This document shows, piece after piece, positions 19,124-30,533 of a stretch of 64,000 bases of DNA. The stretch is from sequence record PP925834.1. One strand, 5' to 3'. The stretch comes from Escherichia phage MiataMamis. Position numbers and translations under genes: made by a program. Positions within the stretch are counted from its first letter, which is position 1. Every line of letters starts with the position of its first letter. The notes beneath the pieces were generated by a model that ran no database searches, had not been told where the DNA came from, and saw nothing but the letters and a program-made list of their open reading frames with translations.

Positions 19124-19363
19124 ATGTACAAGTCATTTTCAATTTACTCAAGACAGGCGAAACACTACACAGAGATCCTGATTACTCAGAAAAAATCTGT
19201 AGAAGGTGAGTGGGAATATCACCATAAAATGTTGCGCCCAGATTGGGTTTTTGATAGACTTATTGCCATGATCCCTCTTGGGGAAGTATACCCTCTGACA
19301 GGTGGGAGGGATGCTTGGGATTTAATTGATTACATAGATTCATTTAAGGAGCCCGGTGTATGA
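19124..19363 (+). CDS. hypothetical protein
   Basis: ATG after GAGGGGGGG RBS. Confidence 0.4.
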   Translation: MYKSFSIYSRQAKHYTEILITQKKSVEGEWEYHHKMLRPDWVFDRLIAMIPLGEVYPLTGGRDAWDLIDYIDSFKEPGV

Positions 19364-19758
19364 AGATTGAGATCACTAAAGAAGGTAAGAAAGTGTCTGG
19401 CGATTATGCAACAGTAATTCGGGATGTAATGTTCGAAGTCACTAAGATTGGCACATCCAAGGTTGGTCAAACGGTGAGTGTGCAAGGTAATATAGCCTCA
19501 GGAGAGAAGATAATCATCGTGATCAAAGGACAAGATCCTGTGGAAGGAACAGTGGGACGAGGAGGCTACCTGTGCATTTCTGAAGAACCGCGCATGCTGG
19601 TTGCTGATGACTCCACAGGTAAAAAGCGGGTATGTAACACTGACGAGGTGATGATTATCTATCCAGTCAACCCAGATGATCCTGCAACATGGATTGTGGG
19701 AAATGAAATCTTCTCTTTAGAAGAGTTATCCTTCCCAGCTCCGCGCTCTGTTCAGTAA
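19360..19758 (+). CDS. hypothetical protein (MKIEIT N-terminus)
   Basis: 132-aa ORF. Confidence 0.5.
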   Translation: MKIEITKEGKKVSGDYATVIRDVMFEVTKIGTSKVGQTVSVQGNIASGEKIIIVIKGQDPVEGTVGRGGYLCISEEPRMLVADDSTGKKRVCNTDEVMIIYPVNPDDPATWIVGNEIFSLEELSFPAPRSVQ

Positions 19759-19797
19759 TAATTTATCTTACCAGGGACGGTAGAAGTAGGAGGTAGC

Positions 19798-20031
19798 ATG
19801 AAAGTTAAATTTCTTACAGATTTAGGGTACCCTTCCTTGGTTGACTGCGTTGGTAAAATTGTGGAAGCAAAACGACTATCTGCAAACGATAATGTTGTCA
19901 TGGTTAAGGGAAAAGATTTACTATCTGCAGGTGCAGAGTCTGGCAGGATCTCTCCTGACTATACGTATTACCTATCTTTAAGTAATCTACCAGAACGAGG
20001 CGGCAAAGGCCTTGAAGTTGTGGAGGAGTGA
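19798..20031 (+). CDS. small acidic protein, paralog family member
   Basis: MKVKFL...GKIVEA...VKGKDLLSAGA...EVVEE; shares motifs with 23458, 23672, 25548. Confidence 0.55.
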   Translation: MKVKFLTDLGYPSLVDCVGKIVEAKRLSANDNVVMVKGKDLLSAGAESGRISPDYTYYLSLSNLPERGGKGLEVVEE

Positions 20032-20561
20032 CAGGTATGCTTCTGATTAACTGGGAAGATCTCTATGGGGACAAAGACCCTGTTGCGTTTGTTGATCGTA
20101 GATGGAGATATACTGAAGAACAACTGGCTGCAAAAAATTTAACTGCGAAACGCAGAAAGATCATCCAGTGCAAGTACAAATACGCACAGTTTGCTGCAAA
20201 AGTGTCTCCACAAATCGAGAGCTTTGTGCTTAAATTGTATGACGAGTACCTCAAATTCAAATTGGATTTTGTACAGGTGTACCGTGCACAGGTACGACCA
20301 GATACCAACATATGTAGATGGAAGGTTGTTTGTGACGGTAAAGATTTGCCGCTCAGCTTGACAATTGAGTGGCGTTATGGGTATCATGAGTGCGGTCTGT
20401 ATGATATTTGGGATGTCATTGTAGATCCTGCCAAGCACCTGAACACAGAGGAGCTGGAATATATCAATAAGGTTATTCTCGATATGTTTTTCAGCTACAC
20501 CCGTGAAAACTCTGAGAAAGAACGGGATAATTTTCTTGACACCCTCAGCGACCATTTGTAG
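20028..20561 (+). CDS. hypothetical protein
   Basis: 177-aa ORF. Confidence 0.5.
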   Translation: MTGMLLINWEDLYGDKDPVAFVDRRWRYTEEQLAAKNLTAKRRKIIQCKYKYAQFAAKVSPQIESFVLKLYDEYLKFKLDFVQVYRAQVRPDTNICRWKVVCDGKDLPLSLTIEWRYGYHECGLYDIWDVIVDPAKHLNTEELEYINKVILDMFFSYTRENSEKERDNFLDTLSDHL

Positions 20562-20591
20562 TATACAATTTAACCTACAAAGGGAGGACCA

Positions 20592-20828
20592 ATGAGTATA
20601 AATGCTGTGCTAATAGGTTACCTGGTAATGTCAGTTATAACAGCGGTATTCTTGACAGGTGTATGCATCGTGTCCAGACGAAGGGTGAAGTTTGATGATT
20701 TTATCACCATCATCACTGCTGCACCTTTTTGGCCTGTTGTTATCTTCATCGTGATAATGTGCCTGGTTGATTACTACAAGAATATCCGTAAGGAGAAAAA
20801 GGAGAGTAGGGATGGAGACCGCACCTAA
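20592..20828 (+). CDS. small membrane protein
   Basis: two hydrophobic helices. Confidence 0.5.
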   Translation: MSINAVLIGYLVMSVITAVFLTGVCIVSRRRVKFDDFITIITAAPFWPVVIFIVIMCLVDYYKNIRKEKKESRDGDRT

Positions 20829-21047
20829 AACTATTTATACTGTTCTTAAAGAGATTGCGTTCTACGCAGATCTTAGCCAGGCACCTTTATGGGAAAAGAG
20901 CATGTATTTAAAATGGTGCGTTAATTTAGGGAGACCTTCCAGTGTTTCAAGCCATGTTTATTGAGATGCTATCTGGGGTATTGTTACTGGTAGCCATCTT
21001 AGGTGGTGCAGTTCTGATGTATAACTATCTTGAAAAAGGAGACAGCA

Positions 21048-21233
21048 ATGGTAAAAAATAAATCTTTAGAGCAGGCTGAAAACCTTCTCCACGAGCTGGT
21101 AAAGGAGTGGAAAGTTGAATACTCAGATTTTAATGCACGAGAGGGTGAAGATTATTGGCCTACGGAGCGCTCAGAGGGTGAATGGTATCAAGATTTTATA
21201 GAGTGGTTATATCAGACGTGCGATGAGGGGTGA
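21048..21233 (+). CDS. hypothetical protein
   Basis: ATG after AAGGAGA RBS. Confidence 0.4.
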   Translation: MVKNKSLEQAENLLHELVKEWKVEYSDFNAREGEDYWPTERSEGEWYQDFIEWLYQTCDEG

Positions 21234-21691
21234 CGATGTTTGTTAAATATGTAAAAACGTGCCTCAACAGCCTTGGCAGAGAGCATTGGTACACCTTGCT
21301 TGAAAAAGGAGAGATTTTAACAAAATCTGGAAAGATAACTTTGATACCTCTTGACAGTAAAGACCCGTCACTACTTGTTATAGATGATTACGTTACAGGT
21401 GTGACGTTCGAGGTCTCTGTGGAGAGGTTAATACGCAGAGCTGGCGGCCCTTGTGATCAAAGAGAGTATGTTTTCGATTCCGTTACAGAGAGGGATCATC
21501 CGTCTTTAATGTTCAGGATGGTAATCAGAGATATGAGGTCATCTATAGATAGGATCGTAAAGGACATTAAGGAACCTTTTAGAGTAAAAGTTAAGAAGTT
21601 TTTTGATTCTAAGATTAACATACTTGCCGTTGTGCTAGGCGTAATTCAACTTCTGTTAATTTTGCACTATTTTGAACTGTTGTCTAAGTAG
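21230..21691 (+). CDS. hypothetical protein with C-terminal TM helix
   Basis: 153-aa ORF. Confidence 0.5.
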   Translation: MTMFVKYVKTCLNSLGREHWYTLLEKGEILTKSGKITLIPLDSKDPSLLVIDDYVTGVTFEVSVERLIRRAGGPCDQREYVFDSVTERDHPSLMFRMVIRDMRSSIDRIVKDIKEPFRVKVKKFFDSKINILAVVLGVIQLLLILHYFELLSK

Positions 21692-21693
21692 TG

Positions 21694-28966: not shown

Positions 28967-28988
28967 CTATCTATGAAGGAGATCTGAG

Positions 28989-29315
28989 ATGGGTATACCG
29001 ATCACTGTAAAAGAATTGAATGAACGTGATGCAGGTGGTCTATGGCCTGCACGAAAAATACGCTGCGTCTACATGAAAGAGAACCTTGAACATCTTGATC
29101 AACAGATCAAGGTCGGTGATATTTTCGAGGTCTTCTATTCCAATCGTCGCAACTGGGAAACCATTCAGCCTTCTGGTTTTGTTCTTGCCAAACTTGACAC
29201 TGGAGAAGTGATTATCCCAGGGTTGGATATTGTCTTCGAAATTATCCAGGAGTGGGATCCGGATAAGATTAGATATGAAGAGTTATTCGGTGAAGGTATT
29301 ATCAAACCTGTGTGA
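28989..29315 (+). CDS. hypothetical protein
   Basis: 108-aa ORF. Confidence 0.5.
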   Translation: MGIPITVKELNERDAGGLWPARKIRCVYMKENLEHLDQQIKVGDIFEVFYSNRRNWETIQPSGFVLAKLDTGEVIIPGLDIVFEIIQEWDPDKIRYEELFGEGIIKPV

Positions 29316-29623
29316 GGTGGATTATGTCTACAAAGACGGCTAAATACTCCTACATGCCATCAACCTCTGCAGAGGTAGATTTTAGTTTCGATGTGTTTCC
29401 ACTGTTTGAGGTGGTTCTGGCATACCCAACAATACTATCTACTCCGGAATCACTTGTGCCTGTTAAGTTGCAGAACGCCATGCATTCTATGCACTACAAC
29501 AATAAATGCAGGCACAGATGGTGTCAGGACGAGGAAAAAGATCTGGATAGTTTGAGAGATTTTGACAGTCACCTTTTGACACCTTTCAGCTACTCCAACC
29601 TTGATAAGCCATCATGGGTATAG
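29312..29623 (+). CDS. hypothetical protein
   Basis: coupled ORF; followed by terminator 29648-29675. Confidence 0.45.
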   Translation: MRWIMSTKTAKYSYMPSTSAEVDFSFDVFPLFEVVLAYPTILSTPESLVPVKLQNAMHSMHYNNKCRHRWCQDEEKDLDSLRDFDSHLLTPFSYSNLDKPSWV

Positions 29624-29647
29624 CAAAATATCAAATTTAAGACACCT

Positions 29648-29675
29648 AGGACGCTCTGTGGCGTCCTTTTCTTTA
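29648..29675 (+). terminator. intrinsic terminator
   Basis: AGGACGC-tctgtg-GCGTCCT followed by TTTTCTTT. Confidence 0.7.
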
Positions 29676-29836
29676 TCTGGTGCACGATTGCATACCTTGG
29701 ACAGATAATCTCCTTACAGAGCGTTTAAGAGCTTCCTACAAACAACTCTCTTTTTCGAGCGTAGCGAGAACGCACGTCCGTTTTGACCCAAATCACCATA
29801 CGCTCGGATTTTAACCAAACCCTCGCGGCGTTTCTG

Positions 29837-29865
29837 TTGACACATTACCGATCCAGTGATAGTAT
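29837..29865 (+). promoter_or_regulatory. extended -10 promoter
   Basis: TTGACA-N17-TAGTAT preceded by TGa. Confidence 0.5.
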
Positions 29866-29983
29866 CCACACATAGTTTGTAGAATATGGAGTACACAATG
29901 AGAACATTGTCCGAAGTTTTAGTGGTGATCCTGATGATCATTACGTCCATAGCGGCTGTTGCCGGAATACTCACGGGTGGAAC

Positions 29984-30196
29984 ATGATCAACACACATGC
30001 ATCTGAAGAGACATCCAAAGGAGTGACTATATGTCCCTTGACTGAGCCAGTGAAAGAGGAAAACTTCGATTCTGAAGATTCTCCATCTCCGTCCCAGGTA
30101 GACCCTGAGGCTGATGACCTGACGTGGGAGGACATCGTAGACATCTGGTTCTCCATTATGCCTGAGCACGAAGAGTTCAGGGGTGGTAGACTATGA
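29984..30196 (+). CDS. hypothetical acidic protein
   Basis: after promoter 29837-29865. Confidence 0.4.
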   Translation: MINTHASEETSKGVTICPLTEPVKEENFDSEDSPSPSQVDPEADDLTWEDIVDIWFSIMPEHEEFRGGRL

Positions 30197-30317
30197 AGCA
30201 CCGAGCCCACACAGGTTCCTCATGCTAAAGCATGGCCTGAAGAGGCAAACGTGCATAATTCCTGTGCATTGGGACGTATAAAACCCTGTTCACATTCTCA
30301 TTTCCAGAGGAGATTTC

Positions 30318-30533
30318 ATGAAGATAGAAATATTTGGTGGAGCTGACAACACTCGTGGCCTGATTTACCTTGAATTCGATGAATCATACCTGCCAGAGGT
30401 GTTAAATATGGACTCTGTTGCTGAGGCTTTGGGAGTAAGTCCTAAAGATCTCTACTCTGGTGCCGAGATTGATGGTTGGGAGGAGACCATGAACATTGAT
30501 TTCAATGAAGTAGAGGATGAACCGCTGGACTGA
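30318..30533 (+). CDS. small acidic protein (MKIEIF), last plus-strand gene
   Basis: GAGGAGA RBS. Confidence 0.5.
   Translation: MKIEIFGGADNTRGLIYLEFDESYLPEVLNMDSVAEALGVSPKDLYSGAEIDGWEETMNIDFNEVEDEPLD

What the first reader, a model, noticed from the sequence alone, without database searches (positions are those of the whole stretch)
19360..30533. Expanded family of small acidic paralogous proteins across an 11-kb stretch
At least five ORFs (19798, 23458, 23672, 25548, 25816), and probably about ten including divergent members (25183, 26624, 26873, 27223, 27552), share N-termini MK[VI][KE][IFL], a central G-K/x-[IV]-x-x-A and K-G-x-D-[LM]-x-x-[AL]-G-A motif, and acidic C-termini ending in E-[IV]-[IV]-E. 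Two members are in tandem (23458, 23672). A second paralog pair (23939 and 26148) is interleaved. Such rapid duplication and divergence of small proteins is typical of host-takeover or anti-defense arsenals; the function is unknown.
Basis: seen in the sequence. Interest (0 to 1): 0.6.

Follow-up and report, generated by a model that had tools for sequence, protein, structure and literature searches.

The report
Small SH3-like paralog families in rV5-like phage
The early-gene block of this rV5-like E. coli phage carries two old five-member families of tiny SH3-like barrel proteins plus a third paralog pair, and public transposon data show that three adjacent members become indispensable only on one clinical E. 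coli strain, so they are probably host-specific accessory or counter-defence factors.

Summary
The window is a Vequintavirus (rV5-like phage). The paralogy is real, but it is not one ten-member family. Profile tests give family A (19798, 23458, 23672, 25548, 25816), family C (25183, 26624, 26873, 27223, 27552) and pair B (23939, 26148). Leave-one-out hhalign probabilities are 89-99.7% within families, at most 4.2% for control genes, and 8.6% between A and C.

AlphaFold models of A (pLDDT 92) and C (pLDDT 82) are both five-stranded SH3-like small barrels. No solved structure is a specific homolog.

The duplications are old rather than rapid. All ten A and C genes have orthologs in a sister lineage at 28-74% identity, dN/dS is about 0-0.2, and no DNA-level repeats remain.

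Family A equals phrog_5009 (function unknown). It is single-copy in unrelated temperate and T4-like phages.

The genes lie in sigma70-promoter operons. Published HIDEN-SEQ tables for phage Bas54 show all twelve are dispensable on K-12. Insertions in the orthologs of 25548, 25816 and 26148 drop to zero on uropathogenic strain CFE311, and 23939 drops four-fold.

The anti-defence reading is therefore partly supported. The target and mechanism remain unknown.

The parts
19798..20031 (+). Family A member 1 (77 aa; rV5 ORF127; bas54_0166), solitary copy
   Evidence: phrog_5009 E 8.5e-36. Leave-one-out hhalign 98.3%. Non-essential on K-12 and unchanged on CFE311.
23458..23682 (+). Family A member 2 (74 aa; bas54_0159), first gene of the tandem pair; modelled protein
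23672..23926 (+). Family A member 3 (84 aa; bas54_0158), second tandem gene, overlaps member 2 by 11 nt; carries an insert after strand 2
   Evidence: 43% identity to 23458, E 4e-16. hhalign 99.9%. Lost by unequal crossover in L006-L008.
23939..24337 (+). Family B member 1 (132 aa, GTG start; rV5 ORF142; bas54_0157)
   Evidence: phrog_7379 E 8e-74. Paralog of 26148, E 7e-9. Insertions depleted 4-fold on CFE311, q=0.
24652..24680 (+). Sigma70-type promoter (TTGACA-17-TATCAT) in the gap before the HPF gene; heads the operon 24728 to 26543
   Evidence: 11/12 match. Corresponds to rV5 annotated promoter P144.
25183..25452 (+). Family C member (89 aa; bas54_0153), detached from the C array
   Evidence: Leave-one-out hhalign 89.1%, E 2.3e-6, 79 columns. 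Own PHROG 11868. log2FC -2.78 on CFE311, not significant.
25548..25811 (+). Family A member 4 (87 aa; bas54_0152), with an insert after strand 2
   Evidence: Leave-one-out hhalign 97.2%. Weak phrog_5009 hit, E 1e-4. Insertions fall 142 to 0 on CFE311, log2FC -7.16, q=0.
25816..26148 (+). Family A member 5 (110 aa; bas54_0151), with a ~50-aa insert after strand 2
   Evidence: Leave-one-out hhalign 94.4%. Insertions fall 71 to 0 on CFE311, log2FC -6.17, q=0.
26148..26543 (+). Family B member 2 (131 aa; bas54_0150); start overlaps the stop of 25816
   Evidence: phrog_7379 E 6e-66. At least 95% identical in all 118 Vequintavirus genomes. Insertions fall 108 to 0 on CFE311, log2FC -6.77, q=0.
26562..26590 (+). 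Sigma70-type promoter (TTGACA-17-AATAAT, extended -10) heading the family C array
   Evidence: 11/12 match. Corresponds to rV5 annotated promoter P150.
26624..26872 (+). Family C member (82 aa; bas54_0149), first gene of a four-gene head-to-tail array; modelled protein; divergent allele
26873..27223 (+). Family C member (116 aa, net charge -21; bas54_0148)
   Evidence: hhalign 94% to 26624 and 90% to 27223. Leave-one-out 97.4%.
27223..27552 (+). Family C member (109 aa; bas54_0147)
   Evidence: Leave-one-out hhalign 90.8%.
27552..27839 (+). Family C member (95 aa; bas54_0146)
   Evidence: Leave-one-out hhalign 95.0%. The rV5 ortholog is split into ORF153 and ORF154.
29324..29623 (+). Context only, not a family member: 98% ortholog of bas54_0140, experimentally required to overcome defence system DS-28
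   Evidence: blastp 98% over 99 aa. HIDEN-SEQ main text and table.

Best explanation
The block holds three sets of old paralogs, all encoding small, mostly acidic accessory proteins transcribed by the host RNA polymerase.

Families A and C have five genes each. Each protein is a single SH3-like five-stranded barrel. The paralogs keep the barrel core and differ mainly in the long loop after strand 1 and in an insert of 0-50 residues after strand 2. In classical SH3 domains these two loops flank the ligand groove. The conserved residues are glycines and hydrophobic residues, not a catalytic set.

I infer that these proteins are non-enzymatic binding modules. Each paralog would recognise a different host or phage partner, to neutralise strain-specific barriers to infection.

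At least the adjacent trio 25548 (A), 25816 (A) and 26148 (B) acts in this way, most probably together. It is dispensable on K-12 but indispensable on uropathogenic E. coli CFE311. The B paralog 23939 contributes partly.

Shown: paralogy, fold class, age, purifying selection, promoter context and conditional essentiality.
Inferred: protein binding, counter-defence as the purpose, and joint action of the trio.
For: - Paralogy.
- Variable insert at one position: alignment A1 and the C model.
- No enzyme or other family match in Pfam, NCBIfam or PADLOC.
- Early operons.
- Purifying selection, dN/dS 0-0.2. Orthologs in the sister lineage.
- Accessory nature: absent from the syntenic block of PVP-SE1 and 4MG. 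Family A is single-copy in early or accessory modules of a Morganella prophage, a metagenomic phage, MagusPhagus and T4-like Merlin. Metagenomic homologs are fused in tandem or to other domains.
- HIDEN-SEQ (10.1101/2025.11.20.689424, Extended Data Table 8): all twelve genes are non-essential or intermediate on K-12. On CFE311, bas54_0152, 0151 and 0150 go to 0 reads (log2FC -7.2, -6.2, -6.8; q=0) and bas54_0157 shows -2.1 (q=0). Orthology was verified at 95-99%.
- Polarity is limited. The T4 transposon is described as having no terminator, and the Bas54 library followed the same procedure. Insertions in bas54_0141, directly upstream of the conditionally essential bas54_0140, are neutral.
Against: - No binding partner or host determinant is known.
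- The authors did not follow up these genes. They cloned only DS-28 and Gao_Tmn from CFE311.
- Translational coupling could make insertions in the upstream A genes polar on B2. The 25816 stop overlaps the 26148 start, and 25548 and 25816 are 4 nt apart. Only 26148 might then be needed.
- Seven of the ten A and C genes showed no phenotype on either strain.
- Conditional essentiality on one clinical strain could reflect a non-immune host difference.
- Vequintavirinae are reported as unusually sensitive to restriction-modification systems (PMC8594841). The block is therefore not a broad anti-restriction arsenal.
- The CFE303 table is missing from the supplement.
Confidence: 0.5

Rival explanations
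1. All ten small proteins form one superfamily by divergent evolution. Family C would be family A with a helical insert after strand 2 and without the G-x-D-L-x-x-x-G-A helix.
For: - A members 23672, 25548 and 25816 carry inserts at the position where C has its helices.
- Shared terminal-strand motifs are enriched in A and C against other block genes.
- The genes are physically interleaved.
- A vs C hhalign (8.6%) is slightly above the best control (4.2%).
Against: - No significant profile-profile or HMM link was found, even with 44 diverse A sequences.
- The SH3-like barrel is among the commonest small folds.
- Many unrelated phage ORFs start with MK.
- The motifs were defined after looking at these sequences.
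Confidence: 0.4
2. [quoted passage not shown]
For: - The T4 family is an analogous set of dissimilar early small-barrel paralogs (PMC12152347).
- A ribosome hibernation factor gene lies inside the array (24728-25045).
Against: - Most members are strongly acidic, with pI 4.05-4.8 and net charge -6 to -21. This is unfavourable for RNA binding.
- There is no N-terminal helix and no Sm motifs.
- There is no sequence link to GoF, MotB.1 or Frd.2.
- Wild-type GoF and MotB.1 themselves showed no RNA effect.
Confidence: 0.1
3. Only family B gene 26148 matters on CFE311, with 23939 as a partial backup. The co-depletion of 25548 and 25816 is a polar effect, and the SH3-like families A and C have an unrelated, possibly redundant, role such as general host takeover.
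For: - Both B paralogs are depleted on CFE311, whereas three other A genes and four C genes are not.
- The 26148 start overlaps the 25816 stop, which suggests translational coupling.
- The authors concede that locus-dependent polar effects are possible.
Against: - The transposon lacks a terminator by design.
- Insertions in bas54_0141, 8 nt upstream of the conditionally essential bas54_0140, are neutral.
- bas54_0153 to 0155, upstream in the same operon, are not significantly depleted.
- The gene order A-A-B occurs twice (23458-23672-23939 and 25548-25816-26148), which fits a functional unit.
Confidence: 0.25
4. The similarity is chance or compositional bias among short acidic ORFs, or the ORFs are not genes.
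For: The ORFs are short and acidic. Some pairwise E-values are weak (0.006-0.24).
Against: - Reversed-sequence decoys score E>=0.1, whereas members score <=8e-5.
- Controls from the same block reach at most 4.2%.
- An exhaustive search finds 55 cluster representatives at E<=1e-3 among 1.84 billion proteins.
- dN/dS is 0-0.2.
- The models are confident.
- The genes have ribosome-binding sites.
Confidence: 0.01

Closest known systems
PHROG families phrog_5009 (family A core), phrog_7379 (family B), and phrog_13920, 13661, 11868, 12359, 12155, 12457 and 12794 (remaining members)
   Same: 19798, 23458 and 23672 match phrog_5009 at E 1e-32 to 1e-39. All 44 diverse homologs tested also match it. Both B genes match phrog_7379.
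   Different: All of these PHROGs are 'unknown function'. PHROGs splits 25548 and 25816, and all five C members, into separate single-lineage families. The 5+5 paralogy, the fold and the phenotype are therefore not recorded there.
T4 GoF / MotB.1 / Frd.2 family of LSm-like (SH3-topology) early proteins (Kim et al. 2025, PMC12152347)
   Same: Both are sets of non-essential early phage proteins with very dissimilar sequences, recognised as five-stranded small barrels only through profiles and AlphaFold. Their function is unresolved. A family A gene in T4-like phage Merlin (gp268) lies two genes from the Frd.2 ortholog (gp266).
   Different: No sequence relation was found (hhalign <1%). The T4 proteins have an extra C-terminal domain (119-141 aa). 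A and C are single-domain and strongly acidic. The copy number here is 5+5 rather than 3.
Classical SH3, KOW, PsaE and OapB small beta-barrels (solved structures)
   Different: Sequence identity is 2-27%. There is no Pfam SH3 or KOW hit. A helix follows strand 3 in A, and a helical insert follows strand 2 in C. The resemblance is at fold level only.
Phage counter-defence accessory genes found by HIDEN-SEQ (bas54_0140 and bas54_0063 against DS-28; T4 nrdC.1 against Septu)
   Same: Small genes of unknown function, dispensable on K-12 and depleted on a clinical isolate. bas54_0150 to 0152 show the same size of effect, in the same experiment, as the validated bas54_0140.
   Different: No defence system has been matched to 25548, 25816 or 26148, and no knock-outs were made. 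Counter-defence is therefore an inference for these genes.

Membership tests
phrog_5009 (phage protein family of unknown function) | Significant match to the PHROG profile over its full length | tested here: met
   19798, 23458 and 23672 match at E 8.5e-36, 6.4e-39 and 3e-32. 25548 matches only at E 1.2e-4. 25816 has no hit but links through hhalign at 94%. All 44 broad homologs hit phrog_5009.
phrog_5009 (does it extend to the five 'divergent' ORFs?) | Profile or profile-profile match of 25183, 26624, 26873, 27223 and 27552 to family A | tested here: not met
   No phrog_5009 hits. hmmsearch E>3. hhalign 0.2-2.3% per member, and 4.5-8.6% for merged profiles.
SH3-like small beta-barrel fold | Five antiparallel strands in SH3 order forming a small barrel, with structural neighbours dominated by SH3, KOW, Tudor or PsaE domains | tested here: met
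Eukaryote-type SH3 domain (Pfam SH3 families) | Sequence-profile match | tested here: not met
   No Pfam hit at E<=1 for any member. The proline-peptide binding residues were not examined separately.
Sm / LSm / Hfq | N-terminal alpha-helix followed by a bent five-stranded sheet | tested here: not met
Sm / LSm / Hfq | Ring oligomer (hexamer or heptamer) that binds RNA | not testable with these tools
   No multimer prediction or binding assay is available here. The acidic pI argues against RNA binding.
T4 GoF / MotB.1 / Frd.2 LSm-like family | Profile-detectable homology of the N-terminal barrel, with a barrel plus C-terminal domain architecture | tested here: not met
   hmmsearch E>=0.05 and hhalign <=0.6% for GoF, MotB.1, Frd.1, Frd.2 and Frd.3 against the A and C profiles. 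A and C members are single-domain.
Phage counter-defence (anti-defence) proteins | Dispensable on a defence-poor host but required on a host that carries the cognate system | tested here: inconclusive
   From published data, bas54_0150, 0151 and 0152 (and partly 0157) are non-essential or intermediate on K-12 and fully depleted on CFE311. The other eight family genes are not depleted. The data are strain-level only.
Phage counter-defence (anti-defence) proteins | An identified cognate defence system whose protection is abolished by the protein | not tested
   The authors cloned only DS-28 and Gao_Tmn from CFE311 and knocked out only bas54_0063 and 0140. No anti-defence profile library is available here. 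PADLOC (defence systems) gave no hits.
DNA-mimic proteins (Ocr, ArdA, Arn type) | Surface array of carboxylates that mimics the DNA backbone and inhibits DNA-binding host proteins | not testable with these tools
   Only net charge could be computed: -6 to -21 for most members, and -1 for 19798.

The most novel reading that the evidence does not exclude
The adjacent genes 25548 (A), 25816 (A) and 26148 (B) form a three-component counter-defence module against a still unidentified immune system of E. coli CFE311. The gene order A-A-B occurs twice (23458-23672-23939 and 25548-25816-26148) because the module was duplicated. The SH3-like A and C paralogs would be interchangeable specificity adaptors, giving the phage a repertoire against different host barriers.
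Probability: 0.3. Interest if true: 0.7.

Novelty: new member of a known kind. Interest (0 to 1): 0.5.

Why it matters
rV5-like phages are common therapeutic and biocontrol candidates, yet about two thirds of their genes have no known function. This analysis turns twelve 'hypothetical proteins' into three defined families with a predicted fold. It shows that they are old, conserved genes rather than fast-evolving ones.

It also connects them to an unremarked signal in a public transposon data set. Three adjacent members decide whether the phage can grow on one uropathogenic strain. That gives a direct, inexpensive experiment to find a new phage-host interaction, probably a counter-defence. It also gives a natural paralog series for asking how tiny SH3-like barrels diversify their binding specificity.

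Tried and rejected
- Pfam, NCBIfam and PADLOC scans of all members found nothing usable.
- Sequence-profile searches of the PDB gave only a 24-residue match of the G-x-D-L-x-x-x-G-A motif to designed ankyrin-type repeat proteins. I rejected this as a motif-level coincidence. C and B gave nothing meaningful.
- Linking A to C by iterated HMMs, a 44-sequence broad profile, merged-family hhalign and a pooled database with decoys gave no significant link.
- Linking A or C to T4 GoF, MotB.1, Frd.1, Frd.2 or Frd.3 was negative.
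- The afdb50 fold library was not available. Model coordinates are not exposed, so A and C could not be superposed directly.
- A search for DNA-level repeats between paralogs found only RBS and start-codon-like strings.
- No Rfam families or tRNAs were found in or after the block.
- Family members were sought in the Seunavirus syntenic blocks. A and C are absent, and there is one weak B-like hit in 4MG (E 3.8e-4).
- Literature searches for rV5 paralogs, early genes or transcriptomes found no prior description.
- The HIDEN-SEQ table for the second clinical strain (CFE303) could not be used. The supplement sheet carrying that label duplicates the CFE311 table.
- A phylogenetic test of the A-A-B module duplication was not attempted. 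The pairwise scores do not resolve which A copies correspond.

Full report
IDENTITY OF THE WINDOW. The 11-kb stretch is 95-96% identical over 98% of its length to more than 115 rV5-like E. coli phages of the genus Vequintavirus. It corresponds to rV5 ORF126-163, a run of tightly packed + strand genes. This run lies downstream of the nucleotide-metabolism genes, PhoH, a ClpP-like protease and a methyltransferase. It ends at a roughly 2.5-kb gene-free region where transcription direction and GC skew flip. Nearly all of these genes are annotated 'hypothetical protein'.

IS THE PARALOGY REAL? I translated the plausible + strand genes of the block and compared them all against all.

BLASTP, HMMs iterated over every six-frame ORF of the window with reversed-sequence decoys, and hhalign between small ortholog alignments of 36 block genes all give the same three clusters.
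- Family A: 19798, 23458, 23672, 25548, 25816.
- Family B: 23939, 26148.
- Family C: 26624, 26873, 27223, 27552, 25183.

In leave-one-ortholog-group-out tests every A member matches the rest of A at 94-99.7% probability. Every C member matches the rest of C at 89-97%. The best of 26 non-member genes reaches 4.2%. The similarity is therefore far beyond compositional bias.

A and C are not linked by sequence. Merged A vs merged C gives 8.6% (E 0.004, 28 N-terminal columns). A 44-sequence broad A profile vs C gives 4.5%. There are no HMM cross-hits.

However, they were defined after looking at these sequences. ORFs 19360 and 30318, which bound the reported interval, are not members. Acidity is a property of most small proteins in the block, not of the families.

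FOLD. AlphaFold2 on a family alignment gives a confident model for 23458 (pLDDT 92.3). It has strands at 2-5, 21-26, 33-37, 56-61 and 65-69, with a short helix at 38-43 that carries the G-x-D-L-x-x-x-G-A motif. The model for 26624 (pLDDT 81.7) has the same strand order, with two helices inserted after strand 2.

In alignment A1, members 23672, 25548 and 25816 carry inserts of 14-50 residues at the same position, after strand 2, where family C has its helices. A and C therefore share a fold and an insertion hot-spot. Common ancestry is plausible (I put it near 0.4) but unproven.

AGE AND DYNAMICS. Two sets of related contigs were recovered. One is close to the window (L006-L008). The other is a sister lineage with no cultured representative in the phage collection (L002-L005).

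The sister lineage has orthologs of all five A and all five C genes, and of B2, at 28-74% identity. dN/dS against close relatives is 0-0.2 for every member, similar to the neighbouring ClpP-like gene. No DNA-level repeats survive between copies. Seunavirus relatives (PVP-SE1, 4MG) keep the ClpP and methyltransferase anchor but lack A and C in the syntenic block.

The expansion is therefore old and stably maintained, not rapid. It happened after the split from Seunavirus and before the Vequintavirus radiation.

Ongoing recombination is visible in two places.
- In L006-L008 the tandem pair has collapsed into one chimeric gene. Its N-part comes from 23458 (84% DNA identity) and its C-part from 23672 (97%). 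The crossover lies inside the shared motif region.
- 26624 is only 52-56% identical to its counterpart in rV5, L006 and Bas54, while its neighbours are 98-100% identical. dS is saturated, so this is an exchanged old allele rather than fast evolution.

DISTRIBUTION AND PRIOR KNOWLEDGE. An exhaustive profile search of 1.84 billion representatives finds 55 clusters at E<=1e-3. All 44 that I tested match phrog_5009 (unknown function), and there is no Pfam family.

Outside Vequintavirus the gene is single-copy.
- In lambdoid phage MagusPhagus it lies between the Q antiterminator and the lysis genes.
- In T4-like Merlin it lies between gene 32 and frd, beside the Frd.2 ortholog.
- In a Morganella prophage it lies next to RecT/YqaJ and methylase genes, and in a metagenomic phage between helicase and ERF genes.

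Some homologs are fused as two or three tandem barrels, or to DUF3310. This behaviour fits a modular binding domain. B equals phrog_7379 and is at least 95% conserved in 118 genomes.

The rV5 genome paper does not mention paralogs or duplications. The closest described analogue is the T4 GoF/MotB.1/Frd.2 family of LSm-like early proteins (PMC12152347). Those proteins are also non-essential and of unknown function. I found no sequence relation to them.

REGULATION. Near-consensus sigma70 promoters with a perfect TTGACA sit in the only sizeable intergenic gaps. One is at 24652-24680, before the HPF gene and 25183, 25548, 25816 and 26148. The other is at 26562-26590, before the four-gene C array, whose genes abut or overlap by one base. 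They coincide with rV5's annotated P144 and P150. A hairpin terminator follows 28933. Early expression by host polymerase is inferred from this, not measured.

FUNCTIONAL EVIDENCE FROM PUBLIC DATA. The HIDEN-SEQ preprint (10.1101/2025.11.20.689424) reports saturating transposon mutagenesis of Bas54. I mapped its genes to the window at 93-100% protein identity, except for the swapped 26624 allele at 52%.

On K-12 all twelve family genes are 'non-essential' or 'intermediate'.

In the K-12 vs CFE311 comparison (Data S7; the sheet labelled CFE303 is a duplicate of it), the results for the family genes are as follows.
- bas54_0152 (= 25548, A): insertions fall from 142 to 0.
- bas54_0151 (= 25816, A): insertions fall from 71 to 0.
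- bas54_0150 (= 26148, B): insertions fall from 108 to 0. For these three, log2FC is -6.2 to -7.2 and q=0.
- bas54_0157 (= 23939, B): insertions fall four-fold (q=0).
- bas54_0153 (= 25183, C): -2.8, not significant.
- The other A and C genes are unchanged.

The effect is as large as for bas54_0140, which the authors validated as required against defence system DS-28. Its 98% ortholog is window 29324-29623. The main text never mentions 0150-0152 or 0157. Only DS-28 and Gao_Tmn were cloned from CFE311.

The T4 transposon is described as having no terminator, and the Bas54 library followed the same procedure. Insertions immediately upstream of bas54_0140 are neutral, so strong polarity is unlikely. 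Translational coupling of 25816 to 26148 (overlapping stop and start) leaves open that only B2 is required.

INTERPRETATION. The proteins are best explained as small, non-catalytic SH3-like binding modules (A, C), plus an unrelated 131-aa partner family (B), that serve as host-specific accessory factors. The trio 25548-25816-26148 is needed to overcome a barrier present in CFE311 and absent from K-12. This barrier is most likely an immune system, given the neighbouring validated anti-defence gene.

The gene order A-A-B occurs twice, which suggests an ancient module duplication. The pairwise scores cannot show which A copies correspond, so this remains a hypothesis.

RNA-binding and DNA-mimic readings are less likely. 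The first is disfavoured by the acidic charge and the absence of Sm features. The second is disfavoured by the compact barrel and by the reported restriction sensitivity of these phages.

VERDICT. In novelty terms this is a new member of a known kind, namely expanded families of tiny early phage barrel proteins. It comes with a concrete and testable counter-defence lead.

Noticed in passing
window 20037-20561 and 21048-21233: A further paralog pair. Residues 42-120 of the 174-aa protein match the whole 61-aa protein (hhalign 98.8%, E 1e-16). They belong to separate PHROGs (13467, 8789) of unknown function.
   Followed up: partly
window 26624-26872: This gene is only 52-56% identical to its positional ortholog in rV5, L006 and Bas54, while flanking genes are 98-100% identical. 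dS is saturated and dN/dS is 0.11-0.17, so it looks like a swapped old allele (cassette exchange). The window's allele recurs at 99% and 85% identity in other metagenomic phages (P0075, P0081).
   Followed up: partly
L006 10001-10213 (also L007 and L008), compared with window 23458-23926: In some relatives the tandem pair has collapsed into one 70-aa chimeric gene (N-part from 23458, C-part from 23672). The cause is unequal crossover within about 26 nt of the shared motif region.
   Followed up: yes
window 29324-29623: This is a 98% ortholog of bas54_0140, a gene of unknown function shown experimentally to be required against the predicted defence system DS-28 of E. coli CFE311. It lies inside the reported interval but is not a family member.
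   Followed up: partly
window 30534-33083: A roughly 2.5-kb gene-free region lies between the divergent transcription units. It has no tRNA or Rfam hit. It contains a cluster of iteron-like direct repeats (32015-32143), an exact 20-nt repeat (32170 and 32401) and a perfect 18-nt inverted repeat (32236-32253 and 32370-32387). The equivalent region of Bas54 tolerated no transposon insertions. It may be a replication origin or regulatory hub.
   Followed up: partly
window 24728-25045: A phage-encoded ribosome hibernation factor (HPF/RaiA, PF02482) sits in the middle of the paralog array, in the same operon as 25183-26543. It was non-essential in Bas54 on both strains.
   Followed up: no
L001 (rV5) 11201-11471, compared with window 27552-27839: In the rV5 reference the ortholog of 27552 is split into two overlapping ORFs (ORF153 and ORF154). 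This is either a frameshift or pseudogene, or a sequencing error.
   Followed up: no
L002-L004 about 12881-13177: The sister lineage has an extra gene (PF27050, Phage_P22_Y8K6) inserted between the B2 ortholog and the C array. It lacks the B1 (23939) ortholog.
   Followed up: no
window 21236-23177, compared with L017 (MaxBurger) about 14436-14524: Judging from the annotation table, MaxBurger/Bas54 appears to lack about six genes that the window and rV5 carry here (rV5 ORF133-138, including an annotated virion structural protein). This was not checked by alignment.
   Followed up: no
phage collection records MG0656xx: Eighteen records named 'Campylobacter phage' with host C. jejuni are about 95% identical to E. 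coli rV5-like phages across this block. The host assignment looks doubtful.
   Followed up: no
HIDEN-SEQ preprint, Extended Data Table 8, sheets Data S6 and S7: The sheet labelled K-12 vs CFE303 contains the same command line (library '311') and identical numbers as the CFE311 sheet. The CFE303 results for Bas54 are therefore missing from the held supplement.
   Followed up: yes
Bas54 genes bas54_0123-0134 (the - strand genes beyond the gene-free region; in the window, above about 33 kb): A run of small hypothetical genes on the other side of the intergenic region is also depleted on CFE311 (log2FC -2 to -5, several with q<0.05). This suggests further host-specific accessory genes.
   Followed up: no
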